A DNA stretch of 64,000 nt from Candidatus Levyibacteriota bacterium (GCA_016186625.1 JACPLG010000003.1:98576-162575); one strand, 5' to 3'. Numbered from the stretch's first letter, positions 1,336 to 21,663 are shown. Notes: a model not told the origin generated them from the letters alone. Made by a program: numbers and translations.

Positions 1336-1446
1336 AGCGGTTGCGGGACGTACCATTCGGTACATCCTTAAAAGTTGCGGATTTGGGGAGGAAAAATCTA
1401 GGACGTCAGGCGTTCTTGTGATATAATTGCCGCGCTCAGGAGATTT

Positions 1447-3624: not shown

Positions 3625-3693
3625 ACCCATCGTGGTTTGGGGCTGCGCCGTAACCGTTAATAGCGCGGATTTTGCGGTTGCAGGGAGGTGATA

Positions 3694-4335
3694 ATGATGA
3701 GCAAAAAACTTTTGTCTATATTACTAATAATTTCAGCGGTTTTTGCGTTTACTTTTGCGAATTCCGCGGTTGCCAAGATTGGTGTGGGAGTCGGTTTGGG
3801 AAAAGTTCAAATTGATGAGAAGCTTTCTCCCGGCGGAATTTATAAATTGCCTACTCTTCCTGTTCTAAACACAGGCGATGAGGATGGAGATTACGAAGTT
3901 GAAGTTACTTATCTTTCCGACCAGCCGGAATTTCAGCCACCGGGTGAGTGGTTTACCTTCACTCCCCAAAGTTTTTCCCTTGATGCCGGCGGTTCACAAT
4001 TGGTTGAGGTATCATTAACTCTTCCGGTTGATGCCAGACCCGGCAATTATTTTGCTTTTTTGGAAGCCCATCCCAAGGCCAAGGGTGAAGGGGTGACTAT
4101 TGGCATTGCCGCTGCCACCAAGCTTAATTTTACAGTTAAGCCTGCCGGTGTATTGGGCGCTGCTATTGAGAGGCTGAGAAGCCTTCTTGAAAACAACGCT
4201 CCTTTCTCTTATATTATTATTGCCGTTGTTGGTGGTGTTTTAGTTCTAAGTTTATTGGTAGTAGTCGGCAGGAAATATTTAGCGGTGCAAATTCGCTTCA
4301 AAGGTAAGTCCGCTAAAAATAAGGAGGGAGGCTAA
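3694..4335 (+). CDS. cell-surface protein: signal peptide plus C-terminal TM anchor with basic tail
   Basis: SD GGGAGGTG; ORF-track start is GTG 3688, ATG 3694 more likely; N-terminal signal; C-terminal IIIAVVGGVLVLSLLVVVGRKY...KGKSAKNKEGG. Confidence 0.6.
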   Translation: MMSKKLLSILLIISAVFAFTFANSAVAKIGVGVGLGKVQIDEKLSPGGIYKLPTLPVLNTGDEDGDYEVEVTYLSDQPEFQPPGEWFTFTPQSFSLDAGGSQLVEVSLTLPVDARPGNYFAFLEAHPKAKGEGVTIGIAAATKLNFTVKPAGVLGAAIERLRSLLENNAPFSYIIIAVVGGVLVLSLLVVVGRKYLAVQIRFKGKSAKNKEGG

Positions 4336-4337
4336 AG

Positions 4338-4799
4338 TTGAGAACATTGGGAATCATCGCTAGTGGTTTTTTACTGCTAGCGACCGCTTTGGGGCCGGTT
4401 CATGCCCAGGGCGGTACTGTTTCCGCTACTGTCAGGCCTAACCCGCTGACTGTTTCTGTTTCCGCTCCCGACCCTGTCACTGTTGGCCAGTGGTTTTATA
4501 TCAAAGCCGAAGTAACCAATTTAGGTAATCAGGCCATCACCAACACCGTGGTCACCATCAATACACCAGCTGGGATAATCGTCCGGGGACAGAAAAAAAT
4601 TAAGATTGGCGATCTTACCGGCAGCCAGACTCAAACAGTTACTTGGCTCGCCAAAGCCAATAGCTCCGGTACTTTTATCATTCAGGTTGAAGCAACGGGT
4701 GATTTGGCCGGTGAACAAATCTCTTCATCCGATTCTCTCAGCATCTCCGCCGTCAGTTCTCTTGCCGCTTTCCTGTTCCGGCTAATCTTTAATGTCTAA
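4338..4799 (+). CDS. secreted DUF11/CARDB-like repeat-domain protein
   Basis: TTG start with AAGGAGGGAGG SD; signal peptide; motif EVTNLGNQAITNTVVTINTPAG typical of DUF11/CARDB adhesin-like domains. Confidence 0.55.
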   Translation: MRTLGIIASGFLLLATALGPVHAQGGTVSATVRPNPLTVSVSAPDPVTVGQWFYIKAEVTNLGNQAITNTVVTINTPAGIIVRGQKKIKIGDLTGSQTQTVTWLAKANSSGTFIIQVEATGDLAGEQISSSDSLSISAVSSLAAFLFRLIFNV

Positions 4800-5160
4800 A
4801 GTGTTCATGAAGAAGGTTTTCATCACCGTCCTTGTAGCTATCGTGATTGCTTTTGGCGCCAGTCTCATCTTATTAAACCGTCAACCGCCAAAAGACGAAT
4901 CCTACGCCCATGCTCCCGATTATTCTTGGGTTACCGGACAACTTCAATATCAGGACATTGAGGGTGGTTTCTGGATAATACGTTTTGGCAGCAGGGATGC
5001 TCCCTACAATGGCCAATTCGTTTTAGGAAAAGACTCGCGTTTGCAAAATTTTAAAAATGGCGATTTGGTAAAAATTACAGGCAAAATATCGCAGGACCAA
5101 ATTAGCATTTATCAAGCCGGTACCATTTACACCCTTCAGTCTATCGAATTTCTCAAATAA
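4792..5160 (+). CDS. membrane-anchored hypothetical protein
   Basis: 122-aa ORF with N-terminal TM helix; 8-nt overlap with upstream gene (operon). Confidence 0.45.
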   Translation: MSKVFMKKVFITVLVAIVIAFGASLILLNRQPPKDESYAHAPDYSWVTGQLQYQDIEGGFWIIRFGSRDAPYNGQFVLGKDSRLQNFKNGDLVKITGKISQDQISIYQAGTIYTLQSIEFLK

Positions 5161-5214
5161 ATCCCCTTATCCCACACCAGTATGTGCAGACACATAGGGA
5201 TTCGGTGGCGATAA

Positions 5215-5511
5215 TTAACATTTTACCTTCCCACATTCCATGTGGGAATACATTTTTCGAAGCTCTTTTTTTGCTTTTTCTAAAATTTTCTTTCTTTCGG
5301 GCGCTAAATTTTTACCGGCGCGGTTAATATAAAAATTAAGCATACTCATGGCGGATTGAAAAGGAGAGGCTTTCCGTCTGGTACTGACATCTGCTGAACG
5401 CTTAAGGCTCAAAGCAATTTTTTTGGGATCATCCCAGGTAAAAACCCCCTCCTCTAAATCCAGTGCGATACTATGTTTGGTAACCTCTCCTGACCATTTC
5501 TTTTTACTCAT
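5215..5511 (-). CDS. DUF3175 family protein
   Basis: Pattern KKWSxEVTxHSxALDLE...SAMSMLNFYINRAGKNL matches DUF3175; C-terminal 8 residues are encoded by the hairpin repeat at 5228-5248. Confidence 0.6.
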   Translation of the reverse strand: MSKKKWSGEVTKHSIALDLEEGVFTWDDPKKIALSLKRSADVSTRRKASPFQSAMSMLNFYINRAGKNLAPERKKILEKAKKELRKMYSHMECGKVKC

Positions 5512-5543
5512 ATAAGATTTACAGTTTTATCTTTGGTAAATTT

Positions 5544-6194
5544 CTATTCTGTTATTATGCGGATTCTTGATGAGACAAGATTTGCCAAGACATTAAGCTG
5601 CGATTTCATTTGCACTTGATATAGTCTTGGGCCTCTATCATAAATTAGTGCCGGGGAGATAAACTGATATGTGTCCTTAGTTCCGTCTCTGGTTACTTCC
5701 GAATTCCAAACGGCGTAATTATCGGTTTTATTAAAAAGTCGGACAGATACCTTTCCATTTGCAGTAGGAACATTAATGAATGCTTCAAAATGTACCTCTT
5801 TAATATTTTCGTAGGCGGCTATATCTGCTGTAGTAAGCGCTCCTCCTACATCTGCCCAATCAAGTGATTGATTAGTTCCGGAGCCAATATTAATATAGTA
5901 TTCCTTGGAGTCTGTTTTTTTGTTTACCTCTGTGGTAACTGGTTTGGGTGTTGGAGTGGGAGATGGTGTGGCAGTTGGTTCTTGAGAGATTGAGGGAGTT
6001 GCATTAATTATTGTAGCCGGCTCGTGGCTTTTTTTTGATTGAAGAATGAGATAGAAGATTCCGGCAAGTGAGATTAAAATAATTATCGAGATTATGGCAA
6101 ATGCTACTGCTACCCTTTTCTCGTCCCTGTGAAGTTCCTCTTCTTCTTCGTGAAGTTCCTCAAGAATTGAAGAATTGCCTATTTCTTTTGTCAC
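5544..6194 (-). CDS. membrane-anchored hypothetical protein with Pro/Thr-rich linker
   Basis: 216-aa ORF; N-terminal acidic region, one TM, PTPTPKP linker, extracytoplasmic domain. Confidence 0.55.
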   Translation of the reverse strand: MTKEIGNSSILEELHEEEEELHRDEKRVAVAFAIISIIILISLAGIFYLILQSKKSHEPATIINATPSISQEPTATPSPTPTPKPVTTEVNKKTDSKEYYINIGSGTNQSLDWADVGGALTTADIAAYENIKEVHFEAFINVPTANGKVSVRLFNKTDNYAVWNSEVTRDGTKDTYQFISPALIYDRGPRLYQVQMKSQLNVLANLVSSRIRIITE

Positions 6195-6249
6195 TTTTTA
6201 AGCTTATAAAAGAATTTTTAAAAAGTAAAGAATCCCCTCCGAAAACGGA

Positions 6250-6357
6250 GTGCTATAATTGCCCCAATGAATGATAGAATCTTGCTTCCCACATTCCAAG
6301 TGGGAAGGTACATTCAGACACCAAAAACCCTAAGCACAACTCTGCTACAATTGCCCC
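6250..6357 (+). repeat. ~110-bp interspersed repeat, copy 1: promoter-like motif at both ends, central hairpin CTTCCCACATTCCAAGTGGGAAG, embedded short ORF
   Basis: Near-identical to 12758-12865 (a few mismatches); hairpin at 6285-6307. Confidence 0.8.
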
Positions 6358-6435
6358 AATTTTCTTGTTGACAATATTTTTCTTTGGGAGTATGTTGCAA
6401 ATACAACCTATACAAGAAAGGGGGTGAAGAAATAA

Positions 6436-7197
6436 ATGGGTATTTCACAAACAAAGTGGACTTTGGGAATTGTTGCCATAGTAATAATTGCCGTTGCAGC
6501 AATTTTTGTCTACCAATCCAAAGTAAGTAACATTCCCTCAACTCAACCAACTTCGCAAGAGTCAACGACAATCGGTAAAATAACTGATATTACGTTTGTA
6601 AATCATATACAGGCAAAGCTACCTGAGCAGGACGTTTTCATTCAAAGTAAGGATGACTCTTCAAAGGTAATACGTGTTGAAGGCGAAACGGCAAGCGATC
6701 CATCAGTATTAGCTCAAACTGTCTATGCGACAGCTGTTGAAACACCGCATGACCCTTTTAAAGTGGGCGACAATCCCTTGGGGCCTTTTCAAAAAGGTGT
6801 TAATCTAGGATTCAACTTAGAAGACTGGCTGGCAGCAACGGGTAAAGGTACGTACAGTGTTGATGGCGATGATGCAGAGCTTTCTCTCTCATTTACAAAC
6901 CTTGTGCCAAATAGCACTTATACTGTTTGGTGTTCACGAATCACTTTCCCACCTACTCCAAATGTGGTGGACAGGCCATGTGGTGCAGCGGATGGCTCAG
7001 AGAATGTATTTACAACAGATGAGAATGGGAATGGTTTATTTTCAGTAAAAATGGAACCATTAGAACCAAGCACCAAAGAAACAGTATCGGCTATTGCACT
7101 TGCTTATCATAGTGATGGAAAAACATACGCGGAAAGTCCTGGCAATTTTGGACTTAACAGCCACGTACAGATTTTCTATCTTTTGCCGGCACAATAA
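6436..7197 (+). CDS. membrane-anchored hypothetical protein
   Basis: SD AAAGGGGGTGAAG; N-terminal TM; 253 aa. Confidence 0.6.
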   Translation: MGISQTKWTLGIVAIVIIAVAAIFVYQSKVSNIPSTQPTSQESTTIGKITDITFVNHIQAKLPEQDVFIQSKDDSSKVIRVEGETASDPSVLAQTVYATAVETPHDPFKVGDNPLGPFQKGVNLGFNLEDWLAATGKGTYSVDGDDAELSLSFTNLVPNSTYTVWCSRITFPPTPNVVDRPCGAADGSENVFTTDENGNGLFSVKMEPLEPSTKETVSAIALAYHSDGKTYAESPGNFGLNSHVQIFYLLPAQ

Positions 7198-7383
7198 TAG
7201 TTAGATAGATATCTGTCTCATACCTGTATGTTTATCTAGCCATATATTTTTTTGTGATAAAGTTGGTTACTTCCCTTGCCCTTCAGGGTGAAACCTTCAG
7301 GATGAATCCCTCGAAGTTCAGCATTGCATGAACGAAGTGGGGTGCTATAATTGCCCCAAAATTTTGCTATCCAAATTACATAG

Positions 7384-7758
7384 CTAATTTTTATTTAGTT
7401 TTTGTCTTTTAATACGAATGCCTGAGAGGGAAATTATAATCAAATTCCCTGAATAATCATTTTTCCTAAGTTTACTTAAGGCAGATTTTACAGCTTTATT
7501 AATGTAACCAGTAGAAAGTTCGTTTGGGAATCGTAGAATTACAATTCCACTATGAGACCCAAGCGGAAAGTTTAATATGTTTGAAAATCCTAAGTCAGCG
7601 GAAAATAAAACAGCTTTATTACCTTTGGCAAACTTAAATATTTCTATATCTGCCTTGCCTCTTAGGCCATGGTCTCTAACATCAAATACATTAAATCCTA
7701 GATTCGAGAGTACATTTGCTAAAGATTTGTGAAGATCCTCATCTATTAAGGCATTCAT
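7384..7758 (-). CDS. DUF5615-family (PIN-like) putative toxin
   Basis: Sequence pattern of DUF5615; 4-nt overlap with upstream DUF433 gene. Confidence 0.65.
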   Translation of the reverse strand: MNALIDEDLHKSLANVLSNLGFNVFDVRDHGLRGKADIEIFKFAKGNKAVLFSADLGFSNILNFPLGSHSGIVILRFPNELSTGYINKAVKSALSKLRKNDYSGNLIIISLSGIRIKRQKLNKN

Positions 7759-8012
7759 CTGAGGGCGACTTCTTCTTCCTCAACAAGTTTTGTGGCGTAC
7801 TTTAAAGCCGCTAAGACTTGCTGGCGAGTAAGTTCGTACTCTTTCATAACCTCATCTACGCTCATCCCTCCGGCAATTTTACCCACAACCACGTCAACCG
7901 GTACGCGCGTTTTTTCAATAATTGGTTTTCCAAAACGTACTTTTGGATCAACAATAATATGTGGAAAAATTTGCTTTTTCATACGACCACTAGTATAGCA
8001 TAACTTAATCAT
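7755..8012 (-). CDS. DUF433-family putative antitoxin
   Basis: IVDPKVRFGKPIIEKTRVPVDVVVGKIAGGMSVDEVMKEYELTRQQVLAALKYA is the canonical DUF433 pattern; start ATG 8012 is more plausible than ORF-track GTG 8036. Confidence 0.65.
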   Translation of the reverse strand: MIKLCYTSGRMKKQIFPHIIVDPKVRFGKPIIEKTRVPVDVVVGKIAGGMSVDEVMKEYELTRQQVLAALKYATKLVEEEEVALR

Positions 8013-8157
8013 GGTTTTTTCTTTGCATTTTTGCACTAGTTAAAATAACGACAGGTTTTCCTGATCGAGTGATTAAAACCTTTTTGTTTCCATAAAATAC
8101 CTCGTTTATTATTTCAGAAAAATTTTGTCGAGCCTGTTTTGCTGTTACCGTTTTCAC
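8005..8157 (-). CDS. Phd/YefM-like antitoxin N-terminal domain (50 aa), not in ORF track
   Basis: Manual translation VKTVTAKQARQNFSEIINEVFYGNKKVLITRSGKPVVILTSAKMQRKNHD parallels E. coli YefM (ARQNLS...ILITRQNG...VLMS); GTG start; its stop overlaps the ATG of the DUF433 gene (cATGATTAA). Confidence 0.5.
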   Translation of the reverse strand: MKTVTAKQARQNFSEIINEVFYGNKKVLITRSGKPVVILTSAKMQRKNHD

Positions 8158-8222
8158 ATCCTGATTTTATTTAACGCGATTACAAAAAAAGTTATAGAGT
8201 TATCTCTGCTATAATTGCCCCA

Positions 8223-8897
8223 ATGGATTTGGACAATAAAAGTGTGGTAATAGTTGGCGCCTCAAGCGGTTTGGGCAAAGCTTTGGCTAAACTTTTGTCC
8301 AAAGAGGGCACAAACTTATTTCTTATCTCAAGAAAAGTCGCCTTATCAAATATTCCCTCCGCTATAAAAATTGCTGCTGATGTAAGAAAAGCCGAAAATA
8401 TAAAAATAGCATTTGAGGAAATTGACAAACACACAGGTAGCATAGATCTTCTAATCAATTGTGCAGGCATAGGTCTTTTAAAAGATTTAAGGGAATCGAC
8501 AATAGAGGAAATAAATGATGTTATTGATACGGATTTAAAAGGGGCAATTTACGTAGCTCAGGAAGTTTATAAAAGAATGGCGGAGAAAGGATCGGGACAT
8601 ATCATAAATATTGTCTCTACTTCGGGACTCCGAGCCAGACCCATGGAGACAGTTTATTGCGCTGCAAAATGGGGACTTCGGGGATTTACAGAAAGTCTCC
8701 AAGTCGCTGGAGAAGAAACAGGAGTTAAGGTAACCGGAGTCTATCCGGGCGGAATGAAATCTGAAAATTTCTGGAAAATAACTCCAGGAAAAGATATAAG
8801 CGGCTTTATGGACCAAAATGAAGTCGCCCAAAAGATTATAGATTTAATCAAGGGGGATTACCAAAAAGAAGTAACAATAGAGCGTCCCAAAAAATAA
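8223..8897 (+). CDS. short-chain dehydrogenase/reductase (SDR) family oxidoreductase
   Basis: VVIVGASSGLGKA (TGxxxGxG), YCAAKWG (YxxxK); ATG 9 nt after TATAAT of the repeat motif. Confidence 0.85.
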   Translation: MDLDNKSVVIVGASSGLGKALAKLLSKEGTNLFLISRKVALSNIPSAIKIAADVRKAENIKIAFEEIDKHTGSIDLLINCAGIGLLKDLRESTIEEINDVIDTDLKGAIYVAQEVYKRMAEKGSGHIINIVSTSGLRARPMETVYCAAKWGLRGFTESLQVAGEETGVKVTGVYPGGMKSENFWKITPGKDISGFMDQNEVAQKIIDLIKGDYQKEVTIERPKK

Positions 8898-8906
8898 CTT
8901 CTCTGC

Positions 8907-8912
8907 TATAAT
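8907..8912 (+). promoter_or_regulatory. copy of TGCTATAATTGCCCC motif with no ORF downstream; candidate sRNA promoter
   Basis: Followed by ~110 nt of non-coding sequence ending in a perfect 10-bp palindrome TCAATGATTT/AAATCATTGA plus AGTTTT (9003-9028). Confidence 0.4.
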
Positions 8913-9050
8913 TGCCCCATTTATCCTTAGCCTCAAAAGGTCTCACCTTGCAAGGCTAAAACTCCATCGTCTAGTCTACGGTCTTATCTTCCATGGATTA
9001 ATTCAATGATTTAAATCATTGAAGTTTTCAGCTTCTGCTATAATTGCCCC

Positions 9051-9773
9051 ATGGACTCAGGAGATTTTCAGAGACGTTTTGAACAAGCACACAAACTCCT
9101 CACCCAGGAGACAACCAACCGAGAGAAATTTGAGGGAGTACGAACTTTGATAAAAGGTTATAATCCCAAAGTTGACAGCGCTTTAGAAAAAGTCTCCGGT
9201 GCTTTGTCTGATCTTGAAAAGCTTAAGGAAGGAGAAATAATTGAACTTAGCGCTCAACATTTACCCGAAAATTCGGAAGAAGAGAAGGAAAGAAAAAAGA
9301 AACTTTTAGCTTTTATTCGTTATTGGAAAGATTTAACTTCAGAAGTTGAAAGAGTTAGAAATGAGCTTTCTTCGCAAAACAACCAAAGCCCGTCCCAACA
9401 AGTCTCTGCTTTTGGAAAAATTGTCAAACTTGCAAAAGGACCATTTGGGGCAGTTACAATTGCTGCAGTTGCTATCGTTGCCGTACTGGGATTTATTAAT
9501 TTTCAAAAACCACCGGAAACGGTTCAGAATCAAGCGATCGATGAAAGTCCAAAACAAAAGATCCAAGTTATTGTAGTAGATGACAAAAAAATTCCTTTAA
9601 GCGAAGTTAGATCTGCAACTGGGAGTGAATGTGAAGGAAAAGCCCATTACCATGCAAGGGAGAATGGTGTTGCTGTGGCAATTGATGGAACGCAAGTCGT
9701 TGATCCAAATCCAACAAGCTGCGGCTATGGAAAAGTGGAAGAAGTTAAGATTGAAGAAATAGAACAACCCTAA
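9051..9773 (+). CDS. hypothetical bitopic membrane protein (cytoplasmic coiled-coil N-domain, one TM, extracytoplasmic C-domain)
   Basis: ATG directly follows the TGCTATAATTGCCCC motif; TM GAVTIAAVAIVAVLGFI. Confidence 0.5.
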   Translation: MDSGDFQRRFEQAHKLLTQETTNREKFEGVRTLIKGYNPKVDSALEKVSGALSDLEKLKEGEIIELSAQHLPENSEEEKERKKKLLAFIRYWKDLTSEVERVRNELSSQNNQSPSQQVSAFGKIVKLAKGPFGAVTIAAVAIVAVLGFINFQKPPETVQNQAIDESPKQKIQVIVVDDKKIPLSEVRSATGSECEGKAHYHARENGVAVAIDGTQVVDPNPTSCGYGKVEEVKIEEIEQP

Positions 9774-9793
9774 ACTTCTGCTATAATTTATGT

Positions 9794-10369
9794 ATGGCAG
9801 TAACATCTACAATGCTTCCGCTTGGCACAAAGGCACCGGATTTTAGTTTACCTGATGTTGTTTCAAATAAAACTGTAAACCTTGAAATCTTTAACGATAA
9901 AAAAGCACTTCTTGTTATGTTCATTTGTCGCCATTGTCCATATGTAAAACATGTCCAAAATGAAATAGCAAAAATCGGAAAAGATTATGAGGATAAAGAT
10001 TTGGGGATTGTCGCAATTAGTGCAAATGATGTTTCGGTTTATCCTGAAGACGGGCCGCAAAGTTTGAAAGAAATGGCAGATGAGTTAGGGTTTACTTTTC
10101 CCTATTTATATGATGAAGCACAAGAGGTTGCAAAAGCATACACTGCAGCTTGTACTCCGGATTTGTTTTTGTTCGATCATGATAGAAAATTAGTTTATAG
10201 AGGACAACTCGATGGGAGTCGGCCAGGCAATAACGAACCTGTAACTGGAAAAGATATAAGAGCGGCAATTGATGCGGTGCTTAATGATAGTGAAGTTTCA
10301 AAAGGCCAAAAACCGAGCATGGGCTGCAGCATTAAATGGAAGATCGGTAATGAACCTTCGTATTTCTAA
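9794..10369 (+). CDS. thioredoxin-fold (redoxin/TlpA-like) protein with CxxC
   Basis: KAPDFSLPD...LVMFICRHCPYV redoxin pattern; ATG 6 nt after TATAAT. Confidence 0.7.
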   Translation: MAVTSTMLPLGTKAPDFSLPDVVSNKTVNLEIFNDKKALLVMFICRHCPYVKHVQNEIAKIGKDYEDKDLGIVAISANDVSVYPEDGPQSLKEMADELGFTFPYLYDEAQEVAKAYTAACTPDLFLFDHDRKLVYRGQLDGSRPGNNEPVTGKDIRAAIDAVLNDSEVSKGQKPSMGCSIKWKIGNEPSYF

Positions 10370-10378
10370 AGAACTAAT

Positions 10379-11140
10379 TTATTTGTATTTTTTAATCAGT
10401 CCTTCAAAAGCGCGGAGCACTTCAAGAGGAGTTACGAAAACTATAGTGTTACTTTTGTCGGATGATAATTCCGAAAGAGTCTGCAGAGTACGGACGTGGA
10501 GACCTCCTGTAGTTTTGGCAAGCCTTCCAGCTGCAATAGCAATATTTTCCGCTGCTGCTTTTTCTCCTTCAGCCCGAATAACAATTGCCCGGCGCTCCCT
10601 TTCTGCTTCAGCCTGGCGTGCTATAACTCTTTTCATCTCTTCTGGCAAAATAATATCTTTTAACTCCACTGACTCTACCTTAATACCCCATGGATCTGTA
10701 GCCCTATCTATAATTGTCTGAATTTTTTTGGCAACTTGATCGCGCTTTGAGAGTAAATCGTCAAGAGAAGTTTCTCCAATTACATTTCTCATAGTTGTTT
10801 GAGCCAGCTGGGACACTGCATAAAAGAAATCCTCTACCTGCAAAACCGCCTTTTTTGCCTGATCTACGCGGTAATAAATGACAGCATTAACGCGGGCTGA
10901 AACATTATCCCGAGTGATTGCTTCCTGATCCGGAACGTCTACTGCCTTTACCCTGATGTCAATTCTTTGCCAGCCTTCTATAATAGGCCAAACAATTCTC
11001 CATCCGGGAACCATCTCGTCTCGAAATTTTCCAAAGCGGAAGCGGACTCCGCGCTCATATTGATTAACCTGTTTTATAGAGGGAATAAGAATTACCAAGA
11101 AAAAGATAATAATCCCAAGTGAAAAGACTGCAAAATCCAT
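10379..11140 (-). CDS. SPFH/band-7 (stomatin/prohibitin-like) membrane protein
   Basis: N-terminal TM plus ERGVRFRFGKF...; typical SPFH domain and coiled-coil tail. Confidence 0.85.
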   Translation of the reverse strand: MDFAVFSLGIIIFFLVILIPSIKQVNQYERGVRFRFGKFRDEMVPGWRIVWPIIEGWQRIDIRVKAVDVPDQEAITRDNVSARVNAVIYYRVDQAKKAVLQVEDFFYAVSQLAQTTMRNVIGETSLDDLLSKRDQVAKKIQTIIDRATDPWGIKVESVELKDIILPEEMKRVIARQAEAERERRAIVIRAEGEKAAAENIAIAAGRLAKTTGGLHVRTLQTLSELSSDKSNTIVFVTPLEVLRAFEGLIKKYK

Positions 11141-11229
11141 TTGGGAAGTATATTACATCAAAACATTTACATTATCAAATTAAGAAAACAGATTTTGAAA
11201 TTTCTATTCTCTGCTATAATTGCCCCGGT

Positions 11230-11667
11230 TTATTGCTTTATATACCTTTCTATTTCTTTTAGAAAATCATCCGGTGTTAGAATTTCTATTTGACGAAAGG
11301 TTTTCAATGTTAATAAATCACTATCTCCTGTTACAATAAAGCCAGATTTACCTTCAATTGCTGCTTCAAGTACTCTATTGTCGTCCTCATCTTCAAGGAT
11401 ATAAATAATTTCATCTGGATGGATAATTTTAAAATGTTTTTTTATGATTTTTTCTAACTGCTTGACTCTGATCAGCTCAAAATTAAATTTTTTGGTTAAA
11501 GTTTCTGTTAATTCAGCAAGGAGCACTGGAGAACTTATCCCAATAATTTGTTTTTCTAAAATGAGGCTATAAACTTGTTCTGGTTTTCCGCCAAATACTA
11601 GAGCGGAGATAATAACATTTGTGTCGAGGACTGCTTTAGGAGGCTTTTTTACCATGCCTAAATTCAT
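11230..11667 (-). CDS. PIN-domain toxin (VapC-like)
   Basis: VLDTNVIISAL N-terminal PIN motif; acidic residues D...E...D; overlaps upstream RHH gene. Confidence 0.75.
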   Translation of the reverse strand: MNLGMVKKPPKAVLDTNVIISALVFGGKPEQVYSLILEKQIIGISSPVLLAELTETLTKKFNFELIRVKQLEKIIKKHFKIIHPDEIIYILEDEDDNRVLEAAIEGKSGFIVTGDSDLLTLKTFRQIEILTPDDFLKEIERYIKQ

Positions 11668-11887
11668 AAACGATCTTATTTACTTCCTTTTCGCTTTTAA
11701 TCCCCATTTTTTTACCAACTTTTTTGCCATAGTCTAAAAGATCATTCCATTCCTGCCTGTCTTGCAAATAAACTCTTAAAGCCTCACGAATTAGCTCGCT
11801 TCTGTTGCGATATTCTTTTTTAGCAAGAATGTCTACTCTTTTGACTAAGTCTTTTGGAAGAGCAATGTTTAATGTTTGTGTTGCCAT
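11636..11887 (-). CDS. ribbon-helix-helix (CopG-like) antitoxin
   Basis: MATQTLNIALPKDLVKRVDILAKKEYRNRSELIREALRVYL RHH pattern; the matching minus-strand promoter is listed separately at 11896-11924. Confidence 0.65.
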   Translation of the reverse strand: MATQTLNIALPKDLVKRVDILAKKEYRNRSELIREALRVYLQDRQEWNDLLDYGKKVGKKMGIKSEKEVNKIVYEFRHGKKAS

Positions 11888-11895
11888 ATACAAAT

Positions 11896-11924
11896 ATTGT
11901 ATGTAATTGATATATCTTTGTCAA
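11896..11924 (-). promoter_or_regulatory. consensus sigma70-type promoter for the RHH-PIN operon (leaderless)
   Basis: Minus-strand TTGACA (11919-11924), 17-nt spacer, TACAAT (11896-11901), 8 nt to ATG at 11887. Confidence 0.6.
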
Positions 11925-12007
11925 CACTCAAAAACCATCATCTGCTATAATTGCCCCAAATTGCAAACAGCCCATTTTGCACTATTTAATCTCCCAGAAT
12001 AATTGTA

Positions 12008-12035
12008 TTGACAAAGTATGTACAGTTAGTATAAT
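12008..12035 (+). promoter_or_regulatory. consensus sigma70-type promoter for brnTA (leaderless)
   Basis: TTGACA (12008-12013), 16-nt spacer, TATAAT (12030-12035), 6 nt to GTG start 12042. Confidence 0.6.
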
Positions 12036-12041
12036 ATGTAA

Positions 12042-12323
12042 GTGAAATATAAGTTTGATTATTCGCTAGAGAAAGATTTAATTCTTAAAGAATCAAGAGG
12101 TGTTAGCTTTAGAGAAGTAATTCAAGCATACAGAACTGGGAAAAAGCTTGCTGACTATGAAAACAAAAGCAAAAAACACCCTAATCAAAGACTTTTAATT
12201 GTTAATATCAAAGGCTATGCATACGTTACGCCATATGTTATAGATGAAAAAAGGAAAAGAGTATTTTTAAAAACTGTATATCCAAGCAGCAAATTAACTA
12301 AGGAGTACATAAAAAAATTATGA
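12042..12323 (+). CDS. brnT: BrnT-like toxin (DUF497 ribonuclease)
   Basis: KFDYSLEKDLILKESRGVSFREVIQAY...RLLIVNIKGYAYVTPYV pattern of BrnT/DUF497; 4-nt overlap with downstream antitoxin. Confidence 0.65.
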   Translation: MKYKFDYSLEKDLILKESRGVSFREVIQAYRTGKKLADYENKSKKHPNQRLLIVNIKGYAYVTPYVIDEKRKRVFLKTVYPSSKLTKEYIKKL

Positions 12324-12628
12324 AAAAGAAAAAATTTGATCCATTTAAAAATCTTAAACTAGATAAATACGAACAGGAAATAGAAGATGCTCTTGAAAGA
12401 GAGGAATTTGTTCCTGTAGAAGACTCTTCGGAAATTAATAAAATATTGACAGAGGCTGCAAAAAATTATACCGAGCTTGAAAACAGCAAGAGTATAACTT
12501 TAAGAATTAAAAATATAGATCTAATAAAATTAAAAGCAAAAGCCGCAAGAAATAAAATTCCCTATCAGACTCTTATAAATTTACTTATAAAAGAATACAC
12601 AGAAGGCAAAACAAAAATATCATTGTAA
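12320..12628 (+). CDS. brnA: BrnA-like antitoxin
   Basis: Typical position and size after brnT; ITLRIKNIDLIKLKAKAARNKIPYQTLINLLIKEY matches the BrnA C-terminal RHH-like region. Confidence 0.6.
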   Translation: MKKKKFDPFKNLKLDKYEQEIEDALEREEFVPVEDSSEINKILTEAAKNYTELENSKSITLRIKNIDLIKLKAKAARNKIPYQTLINLLIKEYTEGKTKISL

Positions 12629-12757
12629 ATTCCTCAATTCTCATAGTTTGAAAAGGTGAGGGGTGCTTGCCCTGTTTACCCTGAACACTTGGAGGGAGCA
12701 ATGCCGAAGGGTTTACGCAGAGCGAAAGTGGGGTGCTTGCCCTGAGCAATGCCGAAG

Positions 12758-12865
12758 GACTATAATTGCCCCAATGAATAATAGAATCTTGCTTCCCACA
12801 TTCCAAGTGGGAAGGTACATTCAGACACCAAAAACCCTAAGCACAACTCTGCTATAATTGCCCCA
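12758..12865 (+). repeat. ~110-bp interspersed repeat, copy 2
   Basis: Near-identical to 6250-6357; hairpin 12792-12814; preceded by internal direct repeats GGGGTGCTTGCCCTG...GCAATGCCGAAGG x2 (12660-12758). Confidence 0.8.
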
Positions 12866-12867
12866 GA

Positions 12868-13083
12868 TCATTTTAGTCTTAAGAATTCTTCTTCGCTAGA
12901 CTCCGCTTGTTTGATTATGCCTCTTACTAGTCCTTTTTTGAGTTCTTTGGTGTGCATTGGAACAGGAATAATCTTCTTTGATTTGGGATTATACATAATA
13001 AGATGACTGCCGGTTTGTCTTTTCTTAATGTATCCGAGTTTTTGAAGAATTTTGACTATCTCTCTTGCTTTAAAACTAGCCAT
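12868..13083 (-). CDS. hicA: HicA-family mRNA interferase toxin
   Basis: REIVKILQKLGYIKKRQTGSHLIMYNPKSKKIIPVPMH is the canonical HicA (YcfA-like) pattern. Confidence 0.75.
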   Translation of the reverse strand: MASFKAREIVKILQKLGYIKKRQTGSHLIMYNPKSKKIIPVPMHTKELKKGLVRGIIKQAESSEEEFLRLK

Positions 13084-13347
13084 TTATAGAGATACTGCTG
13101 GATTTTGTACGGAAATTTGCGTGATGACAACATTTGACCCTTCTTGTGGAATTTCTTGCTTCTCTTCTTTAAGAACCTCTAAATACCCTTTCATAGCGTC
13201 TTTTATCATAGATACCGCTTCCTCAAAAGTCTCACCTTGACTTACACAGCCGGGAAGAGCTGGAACACTAACTACATAACCGCCTTCTTCAGCCGGTTCA
13301 AAAATAACAGTATATTTTAAGATTTTTTTAGAAAGAGATTTAGCCAT
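13084..13347 (-). CDS. hicB: HicB-family antitoxin
   Basis: YTVIFEPAEEGGYVVSVPALPGCVSQGETFEEAVSMIKDAMKGYLE HicB N-domain pattern; TATAAT 6 nt upstream of ATG (leaderless). Confidence 0.75.
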   Translation of the reverse strand: MAKSLSKKILKYTVIFEPAEEGGYVVSVPALPGCVSQGETFEEAVSMIKDAMKGYLEVLKEEKQEIPQEGSNVVITQISVQNPAVSL

Positions 13348-13586
13348 GCTCTAATTATATCACACCCAAACCTTATCTTCCTTGCCCCTCGAAGCTTTTT
13401 GCGAAGTGGGGTGCTATAATTGCCCCCCAAAAAAAGCCCTAATGGATAATATACTTCATTACTTTAAAGTATTGAAGTATATAATAATTTTTCCCTTTTT
13501 CCTCGTAGCATTTCTGTTTACACTGAGTAAAACCGAAGTGCTATAATTGCCCCGGGGGTTATTAATAAAAAAAATGACCCCTGAAT

Positions 13587-13898
13587 ATGTTTAATTTCTT
13601 ATCTGATTTAATCTATTTAATATTAGTTGGCTCAATATCGCTATTAACAATAATAGTTACAAAAAATAGCTTGTCAAAAAAGATATTAGCAAAAGATCCC
13701 AAGGCATTACTTATCAATAATTCCTTAATTATCTTTGGAATTATATTAATAATTATTGTATTTATTAAATATTCGTGGATTGCTGGAATTACAACAATAA
13801 CTATTGCTTTAATCATTTATATTATTATTGCTAGAATATTAGCACGTGCTCTCGAGAAAAATTTATTTGAGTCTCATAAAAAAGAAGGGCAAGAGTAA
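13587..13898 (+). CDS. small polytopic membrane protein (3 TM), unknown function, in AT-rich islet
   Basis: 103 aa, highly hydrophobic; local GC about 25%. Confidence 0.4.
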   Translation: MFNFLSDLIYLILVGSISLLTIIVTKNSLSKKILAKDPKALLINNSLIIFGIILIIIVFIKYSWIAGITTITIALIIYIIIARILARALEKNLFESHKKEGQE

Positions 13899-13978
13899 AT
13901 TCTTCAAAACATCTATAAAAACTTGACTCCGAGGCTAATGAATGGGAAAATGAGCGAGTATTATAGCTGTGGAATAAA

Positions 13979-14503
13979 ATGTTTGTTCCAAATATTAAAA
14001 CCAAAAATAAATTATTCGTACTCTCTTTTTTATCCTTGATGGCTATAATTATTTTTTTAAGTCTAAATAAAATGACAGTAAATTATAGGCTTTCGGCATT
14101 TCTAAGTTTAGCTGCAACTCTAACCTTTTTCTATACATATTTTAAAGAGGCAATATTTGATTGGCATGCTGATCCAAATAGTCAAACCATTAAAAAAATT
14201 AATGGTAAATTAGAAAAAACCTGGTTAGATAAACGAAAAGAATTGAAAGATAAAGAATCATTTATAAAAGATGCTCCTGCTGCTTGGGTGATTGAAGGAT
14301 ATATTCACGTGTTCCTAGGTTTAGCATTGGGCTGGTTTTTCTTTTGGATACTTTTAAATAGATTAAAATTTTTTGATGGAAAATTGGACCTCTCTTCATT
14401 AGGACTACCAGATCTAATTCTATTAATTGCTGGTTGGATCGGAATAAATGGTAGATTACCAACTATTGCTCACGCTGTCCAAGAATGGTTTAAGAGAAGC
14501 TAA
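13979..14503 (+). CDS. polytopic membrane protein (about 4 TM), unknown function
   Basis: 174 aa; AT-rich islet. Confidence 0.45.
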   Translation: MFVPNIKTKNKLFVLSFLSLMAIIIFLSLNKMTVNYRLSAFLSLAATLTFFYTYFKEAIFDWHADPNSQTIKKINGKLEKTWLDKRKELKDKESFIKDAPAAWVIEGYIHVFLGLALGWFFFWILLNRLKFFDGKLDLSSLGLPDLILLIAGWIGINGRLPTIAHAVQEWFKRS

Positions 14504-14571
14504 TAAATTTTAGCATTCTGATATACTTTCTTCTTGTAATCCCCGTAAAAGGATGTTATACTAGTATCAAC

Positions 14572-15351
14572 ATGCACGACATCAATCGCTTGCCACTATC
14601 TCAAATAAAACTATTGCTGCGTTTTTGGAATAATCCCAATAAAATAGGATTTGCTGAGGGAAGAGAAGAGGGAGGTAGTGTAAAGGAATTAAACAAAAAG
14701 GGTCTGATTGAACCAGCAGGGAAAATAGGGCGTAGAGTTAGATGGAGATTAGTCACTGGTAAACTCAACAGTCGAGATATTGATGTAATGATTGGCTTAA
14801 TCAAACACTCTCCAATTCCTGCCGAAGAGGAAAGCTTGATAGTTGAGCTTATAGGGGAAGCAAAAGATCTAGCGATACTAATATCAAGAAATATAGGTAC
14901 AAAAGGTTATCATTATTTTTTACAATCTTTTTTCTTGGTTCTTCGACAAATGGGCTATTTTTTTACTGAACACTCATCAACTATATTTCACTATAGCTCA
15001 GCTCTCTCTCAAGCCGAGGTAGAGATCTTGGAAAAAATCAGAGATATTCGTGATGCAATAGGACACCGAGAATCTCGAAAGAATTTTCTAACAGCTAATA
15101 TTAAACTAGTTGGAGGAATGTTTTTCAAAAATAACGATGTAGAAATTCAATATGGTAGAAATAAAATTTATTTAGTGGGTGAGATTCTTGCGATACATAA
15201 AAAAATGAGAAAGCTTTTTTCTAGCGCAGACGAACTCGCTTTTTTAAGTAGAAGCTATGGATGGCAGTATGACGAAAAAGAACTCCGAGAAGCCGAAAAA
15301 CAGTTGATAGAAAAACTCAAAAATCCAAAAGCTCTTATAAATTTAGAATAG
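14572..15351 (+). CDS. hypothetical cytoplasmic protein, possible N-terminal winged helix and R-x4-H (HEPN-like) motif
   Basis: 259 aa; motif IRDAIGHRESR; no recognisable enzyme family; assignment tentative. Confidence 0.45.
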   Translation: MHDINRLPLSQIKLLLRFWNNPNKIGFAEGREEGGSVKELNKKGLIEPAGKIGRRVRWRLVTGKLNSRDIDVMIGLIKHSPIPAEEESLIVELIGEAKDLAILISRNIGTKGYHYFLQSFFLVLRQMGYFFTEHSSTIFHYSSALSQAEVEILEKIRDIRDAIGHRESRKNFLTANIKLVGGMFFKNNDVEIQYGRNKIYLVGEILAIHKKMRKLFSSADELAFLSRSYGWQYDEKELREAEKQLIEKLKNPKALINLE

Positions 15352-15636
15352 TATTTTTTTAAAAACTAATTCTTACAAAGCTCTTGCATTATATTCCTTG
15401 ACATGTATACAGGTCGCTTTGCTCCAATTTCTAATTTCTAGTTACTAATTTCTAATCAATTCCATACAGAATTTCTATTGATAATTTTTTAAGAATGTTT
15501 AGAATATAAATATGAAGAAAAGTGCCATGACAGAGGGCTGGAATTCATCTCTTAACAAACTCGCCCGATCTTTATACTGATTTGTGCTCAATTTTAGTCT
15601 ATGCTAAGCTAAATACGGTTATTGTTTGCCTTGAGT

Positions 15637-21008: not shown

Positions 21009-21075
21009 CTAGTTTTATATATGAAATTGGCCCACGGTGTCAAGAAGTTTAAAAAGTGCTATAATTCCACTCACT

Positions 21076-21663
21076 ATGGCTGTCAGAAAAGTTATCCAAG
21101 CAGGAGACAAAAAATTAAAAGCAAAAAATAAAATTGTTACAGATTTTAAAGGTGCAAAAATTCAGAAACTTATTAAAGATCTGATTTCTACCAATGAAAA
21201 GGCAAATTTAATCGGTATTGCCTCTCCTCAAATTGGAGAAAATTATATGGTCTTTGTAACTTATCCCAGAAATACAAGAGCTAGAAAACTTGGAAAAGGC
21301 GATAAATTAAGAGTTTATATAAATCCCAAAATCACATATAAATCCAAAAAGCAAAATTTGATTTACGAGGGCTGTGGTAGTGTTGCCAGTGGTGCAATTT
21401 TTGGACCAGTAAAGAGACCTGAAGAAATAGAGGTTGAGGCAATTGATGAAAAAGGGCAGAGATTTAGTCTGCGAGCGGACGGAATTTTAGCTCGGGTTAT
21501 TCAACACGAATATGATCATCTCCAGGGAATTGAATTTATTCAAAATGTGAACGATTATTCAAAAATTGTAGTTGAAGAGCATTACAGAAAAAATATAAGG
21601 AATTCTGCACAGCAGAAAAAGAATTCTTTAATTACTAAAATTGACTACAAGGTAGTAAAATAG
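21076..21663 (+). CDS. def: peptide deformylase
   Basis: Motifs IGIASPQIG, EGCGSV, QHEYDHLQG (HExxH); ATG 11 nt after TATAAT 21059-21064. Confidence 0.8.
   Translation: MAVRKVIQAGDKKLKAKNKIVTDFKGAKIQKLIKDLISTNEKANLIGIASPQIGENYMVFVTYPRNTRARKLGKGDKLRVYINPKITYKSKKQNLIYEGCGSVASGAIFGPVKRPEEIEVEAIDEKGQRFSLRADGILARVIQHEYDHLQGIEFIQNVNDYSKIVVEEHYRKNIRNSAQQKKNSLITKIDYKVVK

What the first reader, a model, noticed from the sequence alone, without database searches (positions are those of the whole stretch)
6250..13553. About 12 copies of a 17-nt extended -10-like repeat confined to a 7-kb toxin-antitoxin island, often abutting start codons
Exact or near-exact copies of (T/G)CTGCTATAATTGCCCC(A) sit at about 6251, 6342 (TACAAT variant), 7346, 8206, 8902, 9040, 11209, 11946, 12759, 12850, 13416 and 13539. 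Only weak variants lacking the TGCCCC tail occur elsewhere in the 64 kb (9776, 18404, 21059, 41220). The core reads as an extended -10 promoter (TGnTATAAT) with a GC-rich discriminator. In several cases the ATG lies 6-9 nt downstream (8223 SDR, 9051, 9794, 13587), implying leaderless mRNAs. Other copies have no downstream gene, or point antisense into toxin genes (11209 into the PIN gene, 12850 into hicA). Two flank subfamilies exist (TCTGCTATAAT... and GTGGGGTGCTATAAT...). Together with GC-rich companion repeats, this looks like a proliferating promoter-bearing mini-element rather than independently evolved promoters.
Basis: seen in the sequence. Interest (0 to 1): 0.7.

Follow-up and report, generated by a model that had tools for sequence, protein, structure and literature searches.

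The report
Promoter-bounded mobile gene-cassette array
The repeated 16-base motif marks the boundaries of about a dozen small gene cassettes in a groundwater Levybacteria chromosome, and it looks like an integron-style gene-shuffling array that has neither the integron enzyme nor integron sites, because each boundary is instead a ready-made promoter.

Summary
Twelve copies of (C/G)TGCTATAATTGCCCC lie between 6250 and 13553, all on the + strand (0.08 expected by chance). A decayed copy sits at 9778.

The core is an extended -10 promoter with no -35 box. Across 59 unique junctions in relatives, 47% have an ATG 6-8 nt after TATAAT, which fits leaderless mRNAs. Other promoters in the window share TGnTATAAT but never the TGCCCC tail.

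The motif is not a self-spreading mini-element. It is the junction of discrete gene cassettes (92-1433 bp here; median 577 bp over 68 cassettes in other Microgenomates arrays).
- Homology between genomes starts and stops at the motif.
- One toxin-antitoxin cassette is 98.9% identical to a Levybacteria genome whose yceG is only 69% identical.
- Two strains 100% identical downstream carry different cassettes upstream.
- Every cassette family shared by non-clonal genomes has different neighbours.

Gene content resembles a chromosomal integron (toxin-antitoxin pairs, GNAT, NUDIX, glyoxalase). However, there are no attC sites, no structured repeats and no recombinase gene beside about 12 arrays.

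The recombination enzyme is unknown. I favour an unlinked site-specific recombinase. Short-homology recombination, as with phage PeSL repeats, is the main rival. I found no published description.

The parts
6250..13553 (+). Whole array: 12 co-oriented junction motifs (C/G)TGCTATAATTGCCCC at 6250, 6342, 7342, 8206, 8903, 9035, 11211, 11942, 12757, 12849, 13411 and 13538, plus a decayed copy at 9778
   Evidence: All copies are on the + strand; 0.08 expected by chance.
5544..6194 (-). Left flanking 'anchor' gene, divergent from the array. It encodes a membrane-anchored secreted protein of unknown function, not a recombinase. It is conserved in relatives that carry different cassettes.
   Evidence: Syntenic loci L029, L110 and L117.
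6250..6341 (+). Cassette 1. 92 bp, gene-less, with the hairpin CTTCCCAC..GTGGGAAG at 6285-6307. Near-identical duplicate of cassette 10.
6342..7341 (+). Cassette 2. Holds a 253-aa protein without a Pfam match (6436-7197), with its own TTGACA/-10 promoter and a Shine-Dalgarno site. It ends in a GC-rich module (7270-7345).
7342..8205 (-). Cassette 3, genes reversed. Contains a DUF5615/PIN-like toxin (7384-7758), DUF433 (7755-8036) and a truncated Phd/YefM ORF (8005-8157).
8206..8902 (+). Cassette 4. Short-chain dehydrogenase 8223-8897, with ATG 7 nt after TATAAT.
8903..9034 (+). Cassette 5. 132 bp, gene-less, with two hairpins (8927-8959 and 9002-9023). A homologous gene-less cassette in L096 shows a compensatory stem change.
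9035..9777 (+). Cassette 6. 240-aa protein without a Pfam match (9051-9773), with ATG directly after TGCCCC.
9778..11210 (.). Cassette 7, probably two fused cassettes. A decayed junction (CTGCTATAATTTATGT) precedes a leaderless redoxin gene (9794-10369, +). An SPFH gene (10379-11140, minus strand) follows. The SPFH part (10378-11210) is a stand-alone motif-bounded cassette in L072 and L091.
11211..11941 (-). Cassette 8, genes reversed. PIN_3 toxin (11230-11667) plus RHH antitoxin (11636-11893), with their own TTGACA-17-TACAAT promoter.
11942..12756 (+). Cassette 9. A 93-aa putative toxin (12042-12323) plus a CopG/BrnA-type antitoxin (12320-12628), with their own perfect TTGACA-16-TATAAT promoter. 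Positions 11942-12667 are 98.9% identical to L053, L101 and L102. The cassette is followed by 94 bp of GC-rich units (12667-12760).
12757..12848 (+). Cassette 10. 92 bp, gene-less, a duplicate of cassette 1 in a different context.
12849..13410 (-). Cassette 11, genes reversed. HicA (12868-13083) and HicB (13084-13347). The same cassette occurs at about 84% identity in L089 and L087, with unrelated flanks.
13411..13537 (+). Cassette 12. 127 bp, gene-less, with an AT-rich palindrome (13453-13478) and a GC-rich unit (13517-13541).
13538..13898 (+). Last junction, followed by a 103-aa membrane-protein ORF (13587-13898). The ATG is 39 nt after the hexamer, so this gene is not leaderless.
15388..15413 (+). 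Conserved right-hand flank ATTATATTCCTTGACATGTATACAGG. In L029 and L082 it directly follows the last junction motif. In L110 the last cassette abuts it without a full motif.

Best explanation
The region 6250-13553 is a chromosomal array of at least 12 mobile gene cassettes in a Candidatus Levybacteria (CPR/Patescibacteria) genome.

Every cassette boundary is the same 16-nt site, (C/G)TGC-TATAAT-TGCCCC, always in one orientation. The site has two roles.

(1) It is a self-contained extended -10 promoter with no -35 box. Its predicted +1 falls on the A of the ATG that follows directly in about half of all junctions. A co-oriented cassette gene would therefore be expressed as a leaderless mRNA. 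Insertion into an operon would also not be polar.

(2) It is the place where cassettes are cut and joined. Recombination between two directly repeated sites would release a cassette carrying one site. Recombination of that site with any other copy would insert it.

Toxin-antitoxin cassettes carry their own promoters and often sit reversed, so the junction promoter then reads antisense into the toxin gene.

Shown here: the motif, its orientation, its restriction to the island, the cassette boundaries, shuffling and recent horizontal transfer of single cassettes, and the lack of attC sites and of linked recombinases.

Inferred: promoter activity and leaderless translation, circular intermediates, and the enzyme.

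My committed guess for the enzyme is a site-specific recombinase encoded elsewhere in the genome and acting in trans. I put about 0.45 on that and about 0.3 on host short-homology recombination. For the cassette-array architecture itself I put about 0.85. The confidence given for this explanation (0.6) is a compromise between the well-supported architecture and the inferred enzyme.
For: Motif statistics and strand.

Island specificity:
- Inside the island, 11 of 13 + strand TGnTATAAT sites carry TGCCCC. Outside it, 0 of 14 on either strand do.
- Only about 7 of 73 genes in the window have TATAAT 5-8 nt before the start codon.

Promoter geometry:
- No -35 box next to the copies.
- Of 59 unique junctions, 28 have an ATG 6-8 nt after the hexamer, 23 of them at exactly 6 nt. 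About 5% would be expected by chance.
- 20 of those ATGs open ORFs of at least 60 aa.

Cassette boundaries:
- Window 11942-12667 matches L053, L101 and L102 at 98.9%. The match starts 4 nt before TATAAT and ends at the next junction.
- L101 versus L102 are 100% identical over 1827 bp starting 4 nt before TATAAT, and unrelated upstream.
- L082 versus L087 are 99.3% identical up to the motif and then diverge from position +7.
- The HicAB cassette occurs in three genomes, with unrelated sequence outside the two motifs.
- The SPFH cassette ends 5 nt before the hexamer.

Horizontal transfer: yceG of the same two genomes is 68.9% identical in DNA and 62% in protein, against 98.9% for the cassette.

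Inventory: 68 complete cassettes fall into 46 families with a median length of 577 bp. Every family shared by non-clonal genomes has different neighbours. Two gene-less cassettes are duplicated at non-adjacent positions of one array.

Same locus, different content: window, L029, L110 and L117.

New loci: the L096 array lies between rpsJ and rplC.

Gene content is integron-like: NUDIX, GNAT, glyoxalase, Phd, HicB, ParE and RelB.

The TGCCCC tail is not expected for promoter strength. Discriminators are AG- or AT-rich in Terrabacteria, and C-rich ones weaken E. coli promoters (PMC12641261).
Against: - No recombinase gene was found within 6 kb upstream or 50 kb downstream of the window array, or beside about 11 other arrays.
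- The site has no dyad symmetry of the kind core sites of tyrosine or serine recombinases usually show.
- GC-rich companion modules do not fold better than shuffled sequence.
- No transcript or read-level data were available, so neither promoter activity nor circles were observed.
- Some arrays have decayed motifs (L110: TAGCAT, TGCTCC). This shows a continuum with ordinary leaderless promoters.
- Junction conservation statistics are partly biased, because loci were found by searching for the motif.
- All comparison loci come from metagenome assemblies.
Confidence: 0.6

Rival explanations
1. Same cassette architecture, but no dedicated enzyme. Cassettes are exchanged by the host's general or short-homology recombination between the repeated promoter sequences. 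The shared sequence is sometimes extended by TAACTTCTGC...ATGAA or by 35-50 nt GC-rich modules. This would work as proposed for the promoter-stem-loop (PeSL) repeats of T4-type phages.
For: - No linked recombinase beside about 12 arrays.
- The site is asymmetric and unstructured.
- Co-oriented junctions share up to about 25 nt from stop codon to ATG, and G-type junctions share about 50 nt.
- RecA-type machinery is indicated by ruvABC in the window.
- There is a precedent of recombination between PeSL repeats producing mini-circles (PMC2839356).
- Arrays grade into ordinary leaderless gene strings (L110).
Against: - Single cassettes moved between genomes that are only about 69% identical, with nothing but the 16-mer shared on either side. 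From general knowledge, that is far below the usual minimum for RecA-dependent exchange.
- All 46 families appear individually shuffled.
- The invariance of TGCCCC on reversed cassettes needs continuous homogenisation or selection.
Confidence: 0.3
2. One reading: a short promoter-bearing mini-element (MITE-like, comparable to Correia elements) copies itself into intergenic sites of the island.
For: - Identical 16-mers with two flank subfamilies and companion repeats.
- Some copies have no downstream gene or point antisense.
Against: - Conservation ends at -5 and +12, with no terminal inverted repeats or target-site duplications.
- Inter-genome homology blocks comprise the genes between two motifs, not the motif alone.
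- No transposase is present.
Confidence: 0.05
3. Nothing mobile. The motif is simply the lineage's optimal leaderless promoter, kept by selection in front of independently regulated small genes.
For: - TCTGnTATAAT plus ATG is used by ordinary genes in the window.
- The 17-mer occurs singly before an ATG or a tRNA in Saccharibacteria and WWE3 genomes.
Against: - The TGCCCC tail is absent from all 14 extended -10 sites outside the island.
- The motif is retained where it faces the 3' end of reversed genes.
- Homology breakpoints sit exactly at the motif, with 98.9% versus 69% identity between cassette and housekeeping gene.
- The single hits in the 596-Gb scan (62 loci) are about the number expected by chance for a 17-mer, by my own estimate of roughly 70.
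Confidence: 0.03
4. A canonical integron cassette array, or a CALIN (a cluster of attC sites lacking an integrase).
For: - Variable cassettes at a conserved locus, about 0.6-kb cassettes, rich in toxin-antitoxin, GNAT, NUDIX and glyoxalase genes, with reversed TA cassettes and gene-less cassettes.
Against: - No RYYYAAC...GTTRRRY pairs at any junction.
- No hairpin-forming repeats.
- No intI or any tyrosine recombinase in the window.
- The junction lies at the 5' promoter end of cassettes rather than being a 3' attC.
Confidence: 0.02

Closest known systems
Sedentary chromosomal integrons and CALINs (IntI/attC cassette arrays)
   Same: - Co-oriented arrays of short cassettes (0.1-1.4 kb) at a fixed chromosomal locus.
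- Cassette content differs between relatives.
- The cassette pool is shared and shuffled.
- Enriched in toxin-antitoxin, GNAT, NUDIX and glyoxalase genes.
- TA cassettes carry their own promoters and are often reversed.
- Gene-less cassettes are present.
   Different: - No attC (no R''/R' cores, no folded palindromes).
- No integrase beside any array.
- The conserved site is 16 nt, asymmetric and lies at the 5' end of the cassette.
- The site is itself a promoter, so cassettes are not promoterless and do not depend on a Pc promoter.
PeSL (promoter-early stem-loop) regulatory cassettes of T4-type phages (PMC2839356, PMC4122927)
   Same: - Repeated strong sigma70-type promoter sequences flank small non-essential genes in hyperplastic regions.
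- Insertions, deletions and replacements between close relatives break at the repeats.
- Each gene becomes an autonomous transcription unit.
   Different: - Bacterial (CPR) chromosome, not a phage.
- The repeat is 16 nt rather than a promoter-terminator composite of about 50-100 nt.
- A stem-loop is present only in some junctions.
- Transfer occurred between genomes about 69% identical, and T4's hyper-recombination machinery is absent.
Xer-dependent modules (pdif modules of Acinetobacter plasmids; IMEX arrays at dif). Comparison from my own knowledge, not tested against a paper here.
   Same: - Modules, often toxin-antitoxin genes, are bounded by short sites.
- They are moved by a recombinase that the module does not encode.
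- Tandem arrays can form.
   Different: - No 28-bp two-arm dif-like site.
- Nothing is conserved beyond +12, where the XerD arm would be.
- All sites are in direct rather than alternating orientation.
Phage 'morons' and promoter-bearing MITEs (Correia elements). Comparison from my own knowledge.
   Same: Inserted DNA brings its own promoter, so expression does not depend on context.
   Different: - Morons have no common junction site.
- Correia elements are 100-155 bp with inverted repeats and TA duplications, and they move without cargo genes.

Membership tests
Integron / CALIN | IntI-type tyrosine recombinase gene next to the array (integron proper) | tested here: not met
   Pfam scans of window ORFs found no recombinase. 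The divergent flanking gene 5544-6194 encodes a membrane-anchored secreted protein.
Integron / CALIN | attC sites: imperfect palindromes with RYYYAAC...GTTRRRY cores at cassette 3' ends | tested here: not met
   The pattern scan finds no such pair at any junction. Junction-proximal repeats fold no better than shuffles, with z from -0.2 to +1.2. The IntegronFinder attC covariance model itself was not available.
Integron / CALIN | Mostly promoterless cassettes expressed from a common Pc promoter | tested here: not met
   Every junction carries TGnTATAAT, and 47% are followed by an ATG at 6-8 nt. Promoter activity itself is inferred.
Integron / CALIN | Variable cassette content at a conserved locus, with cassettes shuffled between genomes | tested here: met
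PeSL-type regulatory cassettes | Repeated composite of a strong sigma70 promoter plus a stem-loop terminator | tested here: inconclusive
   The promoter part is present at all junctions. Palindromes lie upstream of only some junctions (9002-9023, 13453-13478). There is no excess of terminator-like sites.
PeSL-type regulatory cassettes | Indel and replacement breakpoints between close relatives fall in the repeats | tested here: met
   L101 versus L102, L082 versus L087, and window versus L053.
PeSL-type regulatory cassettes | Resides in hyperplastic regions of T4-type phage genomes | tested here: not met
   The window carries sigma70, dnaG, ruvAB, leuS and purABH. There is no match in the phage collection or in viral contigs.
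PeSL-type regulatory cassettes | Mini-circles formed by repeat-to-repeat recombination | not testable with these tools
   Needs reads or outward-facing PCR.
MITE / Correia-like promoter element | Terminal inverted repeats and target-site duplication; the short element itself is the mobile unit | tested here: not met
   The junction logo shows information only from -5 to +12. The homology blocks are gene-sized.
Xer/dif-type module site | About 28-bp site with two conserved 11-bp arms around a 6-8 bp spacer | tested here: not met
   There is no conservation beyond +12 and no dyad symmetry.
Extended -10 sigma70 promoter giving leaderless mRNA | TGnTATAAT without the need for a -35 box | tested here: met
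Extended -10 sigma70 promoter giving leaderless mRNA | Transcription starts at the A of the ATG about 7 nt after the hexamer | not testable with these tools
   Only the spacing is shown. No RNA data were available.

The most novel reading that the evidence does not exclude
Microgenomates (CPR) bacteria possess a previously unrecognised gene-capture system analogous to integrons. Its recombination site is a 16-nt portable leaderless promoter rather than a folded attC. Its recombinase is unlinked and so far unidentified. Cassettes are exchanged between distantly related genomes and can even be stacked inside essential operons, such as between rpsJ and rplC, without polarity.
Probability: 0.4. 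Interest if true: 0.9.

Novelty: new variant of a known kind. Interest (0 to 1): 0.72.

Why it matters
CPR/Patescibacteria have tiny genomes, and how they acquire and exchange accessory genes is poorly understood.

A cassette array with junctions that are both recombination boundaries and context-independent leaderless promoters would be a compact solution to acquiring a gene and expressing it at once. It would be a second, independent invention of the integron logic.

It would also give a simple sequence handle, the 16-mer, for finding the flexible gene pool of these uncultivated bacteria in metagenomes. That same handle could be used to hunt for the enzyme involved.

On the practical side, the junctions cause gene callers to add spurious 'CYNCPM' N-termini, and near-identical duplicated cassettes can fragment short-read assemblies.

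Tried and rejected
- attC-type cores (RYYYAAC..GTTRRRY): none at junctions.
- Rfam at gathering and E-value thresholds: nothing relevant.
- Folding of GC-rich modules and of the G-type junction on both strands: no better than shuffles. Alifold gave only a weak 5-bp GCCCC/GGGGU stem.
- Recombinase hunt. I ran Pfam on about 65 window ORFs, 149 ORFs from array loci, and 30 large flank ORFs. None was found. One search lists only families with several members, so a single hidden hit in that set cannot be excluded.
- Exact-protein look-ups to find alternative contexts in the source samples: either nothing on record or only short contigs.
- Phage and plasmid collections and viral contigs: no similarity and no arrays.
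- GC skew to place the array relative to the terminus: skew follows the coding strand and is uninformative.
- tRNA scan: none in the window.
- Literature searches for integrons, cassettes or leaderless promoters in CPR, and for the motif string: nothing relevant.
- I also considered and dropped CRISPR-like arrays, DNA-uptake sequences, REP/RAYT and IS200/IS605-type ends. The spacing, the single strand, the island restriction and the lack of hairpins or transposases do not fit any of them.

Full report
OBSERVATION

The motif is real and highly non-random. CTGCTATAATTGCCCC with up to 2 mismatches occurs 11 times, against 0.08 expected. The 12-mer TATAATTGCCCC adds a twelfth copy at 12757-12772. 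All twelve lie between 6250 and 13553, and all are on the + strand.

A decayed copy (CTGCTATAATTTATGT) sits at 9778. The only near relative elsewhere is TGATATAATTGCCGC at 1419.

The two flank types (TCTGC and GGGGTGC/GAGTGC) and the GC-rich companion repeats exist.

SETTING

The window is a piece of bacterial chromosome carrying sigma-70, dnaG, ruvAB, leuS, purA/B/H, def and yceG. It comes from a Candidatus Levybacteria metagenome-assembled genome. The flanking protein is 100% identical to HYW63_00775 on a 171.7-kb contig.

Between successive motif copies lie twelve units of 92, 1000, 864, 697, 132, 743, 1433, 731, 815, 92, 562 and 127 bp. Their contents fall into four groups:
- Co-oriented genes that start 6-7 nt after the hexamer: SDR at 8223, an unknown protein at 9051, and redoxin at 9794.
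- Genes with their own canonical promoters: the secreted protein at 6436, and the BrnA-type TA pair with a perfect TTGACA-16-TATAAT.
- TA pairs on the opposite strand: DUF5615/DUF433, PIN/RHH and HicAB.
- Four gene-less units rich in palindromes.

PROMOTER READING

The conserved block runs only from -5 to +12 around TATAAT. It contains TGn-TATAAT, and no -35 hexamer accompanies it. It can therefore only act as an extended -10 promoter.

Across the window and related arrays there are 59 unique junctions. Of these, 28 have an ATG 6-8 nt after the hexamer, 23 of them at exactly 6 nt. About 5% would be expected by chance. Twenty of those ATGs open ORFs of at least 60 aa. This geometry puts +1 on the A of the ATG, which would give leaderless mRNA.

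Ordinary genes of the window use the same TCTGnTATAAT-N6-ATG design: hicB, and the genes starting at 23022, 26900 and 41240. None of the 14 extended -10 sites outside the island has the TGCCCC tail, whereas 11 of 13 + strand sites inside do.

A C-rich discriminator is not what promoter strength would select. Discriminators are AG- or AT-rich in Terrabacteria, and C-rich ones are the weakest in E. coli libraries (PMC12641261). Promoter activity itself was not measured.

THE MOTIF IS A CASSETTE JUNCTION

A scan of 185,579 species-representative genomes with the 17-mer gave about the number of single hits expected by chance (my estimate is roughly 70 for 596 Gb). It also gave same-strand clusters, which occur in Microgenomates MAGs (Levybacteria, Gottesmanbacteria, unclassified Patescibacteria) and in one contig of a bin labelled Gammaproteobacteria (L075). 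A metagenome scan added more clusters.

Comparing these arrays shows that homology blocks begin and end at the motif:
- Window 11942-12667 is 98.9% identical to L053, L101 and L102. The match starts 4 nt before TATAAT and ends at the next junction, and both neighbours differ.
- L101 and L102 are 100% identical for 1827 bp starting 4 nt before a hexamer, and unrelated upstream.
- L082 and L087 are 99.3% identical up to a motif and then diverge from +7. One continues into a HicAB cassette and the other into the chromosomal flank.
- The HicAB cassette is shared by three genomes at about 84% identity, with no similarity outside its two motifs.
- The SPFH part of window unit 7 is a separate motif-bounded cassette in L072 and L091.

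The genome that shares the 98.9% cassette has a yceG gene only 68.9% identical in DNA and 62% in protein to that of the window. A single 0.7-kb cassette has therefore moved recently between distant relatives.

Over 24 loci I counted 68 complete cassettes in 46 families, with a median length of 577 bp. Every family shared by non-clonal genomes has different neighbours. Two gene-less cassettes are duplicated at non-adjacent positions of one array.

The window's locus, next to the divergent gene 5544-6194, holds different cassettes in relatives L029 (3), L110 (3, with partly decayed motifs) and L117 (7). It holds none in L108 and L111.

Arrays also occur at other loci, including between rpsJ and rplC in L096. 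Pooled gene content (NUDIX, GNAT, glyoxalase, Phd, HicB, ParE, RelB) resembles that of chromosomal integrons.

WHAT IT IS NOT

- It is not an integron or CALIN. No R''/R' cores occur at junctions, no repeats form hairpins, and no IntI or other recombinase is present in the window or beside about 11 other arrays.
- It is not a MITE. There are no inverted repeats or target duplications, and the repeated unit is gene-sized.
- It is not dif-like. There is no second arm.
- It is not phage or plasmid DNA.
- It is not a known RNA family.

MECHANISM

The data require recombination whose crossovers fall inside CTGCTATAATT(GCCCC). The left-hand identity persists to at least +6, and the right-hand identity begins by -4.

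The simplest scheme is excision of a cassette by exchange between two direct copies, followed by re-insertion at any other copy. It accounts for several findings:
- the uniform orientation of the junctions;
- the single-cassette duplications;
- the seeding of arrays at new promoter-like sites;
- the retention of the motif next to reversed cassettes.

Because each insertion brings a promoter reading the same way, downstream genes remain expressed. This may be why an array is tolerated inside the S10 operon (inference).

Which enzyme acts is unknown. I favour an unlinked site-specific recombinase (about 0.45) for two reasons:
- Single cassettes cross between genomes that share nothing but 16 nt on each side.
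- The TGCCCC tail is kept although it is not promoter-optimal.

The main rival (about 0.3) is host short-homology recombination between the repeats, as proposed for PeSL promoter-stem-loop cassettes of T4-type phages (PMC2839356). It is supported by three observations:
- There is no linked recombinase.
- The site lacks symmetry.
- Some junctions share longer homology: TAACTTCTGC..ATGAA, or the roughly 50-nt GC-rich module plus motif.

COMPARISON AND NOVELTY

Functionally this works like an integron array, and formally like PeSL-mediated modular shuffling. It fails defining features of both: attC and IntI for the integron, and phage context and the promoter-terminator composite for PeSL.

I found no description of such arrays in CPR bacteria in the searchable literature. 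That is not proof that none exists. I rate it a new variant of a known kind (gene-cassette arrays), with a substantial chance (about 0.4) that it represents a distinct recombination system.

LIMITS

All relatives are metagenome assemblies found by searching for the motif, which biases the conservation statistics. Only 2-13 kb around each array could be read. No expression or read-level data were available. The GC-rich units stacked immediately 5' of some hexamers, each starting TTGCCCy like the motif's 3' half, remain unexplained, as does the motif-less stretch 13554-15393.

Noticed in passing
window 6285-6307 and 12792-12814; 8927-8959; 9002-9023; 13453-13478; L096 (reverse strand) about 5668-5843; L102 370-572: Gene-less cassettes contain perfect or near-perfect palindromes. 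Examples are CTTCCCAC..GTGGGAAG, TTCAATGATTTAAATCATTGAA, ACTTCATTACTTTAAAGTATTGAAGT, and CTCGAG-centred palindromes of 24-32 nt in L096 and L102. The window 8903-9034 cassette and its L096 homologue differ by a compensatory stem change (TTCAATGA/TCATTGAA versus TTCGATGA/TCATCGAA). They could be small RNAs, terminators or protein-binding sites.
   Followed up: partly
window 7270-7345, 12667-12760, 13377-13414, 13517-13541; L053 130-183; L072, L087, L037 and L096 junctions: GC-rich units of about 24-38 nt come in three types: TTGCCCTGAGC..CGAAGGGy, TTTACaCTGAG..GAAGTG..GGTGC and cTTGCCCCTCGTAGCCTTGCGCGAAGTGGGGTGC. They are stacked 1-4 deep and end exactly at TATAAT. Each begins like the motif's 3' half (TTGCCCy). 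The window has 94 bp of them where L053 has none, after an otherwise 98.9% identical cassette. They do not form significant hairpins.
   Followed up: partly
L096 (oriented) 2934-8378: An array of about 8 cassettes is inserted between rpsJ (S10) and rplC (L3), downstream of tuf. It includes LysM, alpha/beta hydrolase, VTT-domain and zeta-toxin-like kinase genes. All junctions point in the direction of the ribosomal operon.
   Followed up: yes
junction plus ATG in many loci, e.g. L105 5170-5571, L102 546-1091, L097 693-980: ORFs called from upstream start codons translate the junction as ...CYNCPM.... This gives spurious N-terminal extensions on cassette proteins. The peptide could serve as a database handle for such arrays.
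   Followed up: no
window 1419-1433: A one-mismatch variant, TGATATAATTGCCGC, lies upstream of a Shine-Dalgarno site and the subtilase gene 1447-3624, about 5 kb outside the array. A second subtilase (15622-17508) flanks the other side.
   Followed up: no
window 8005-8157 (minus strand): A 50-aa Phd/YefM antitoxin N-terminal fragment without a partner toxin overlaps the start of the DUF433 gene. It is probably a remnant of an older TA cassette.
   Followed up: no
window 13554-15393: Three genes without Pfam matches (13587-13898, 13979-14503, 14572-15351) lie between the last junction and the conserved right flank (15388-15413). They have ordinary promoters and no junction motif. They may be old cassettes with decayed junctions or a different insertion.
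   Followed up: partly
L117 298-6460: In this relative the 'anchor' gene itself sits inside a run of seven co-oriented junction motifs, with arrays on both sides. It may therefore be a reversed cassette rather than a fixed chromosomal landmark. A small GIY-YIG ORF (6572-6814) lies just beyond the outermost motif.
   Followed up: no
window about 19400-21700: Gene orientation switches from mostly + to mostly - strand near purH/def. GC skew follows the coding strand, so a replication terminus could not be placed.
   Followed up: partly
L115 and L116 (Logan contigs of the source samples): Short-read contigs end about 22 nt before the first junction, that is, close to the start of the duplicated 92-bp cassette. 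Arrays of this kind probably fragment assemblies and are under-represented in MAGs.
   Followed up: no
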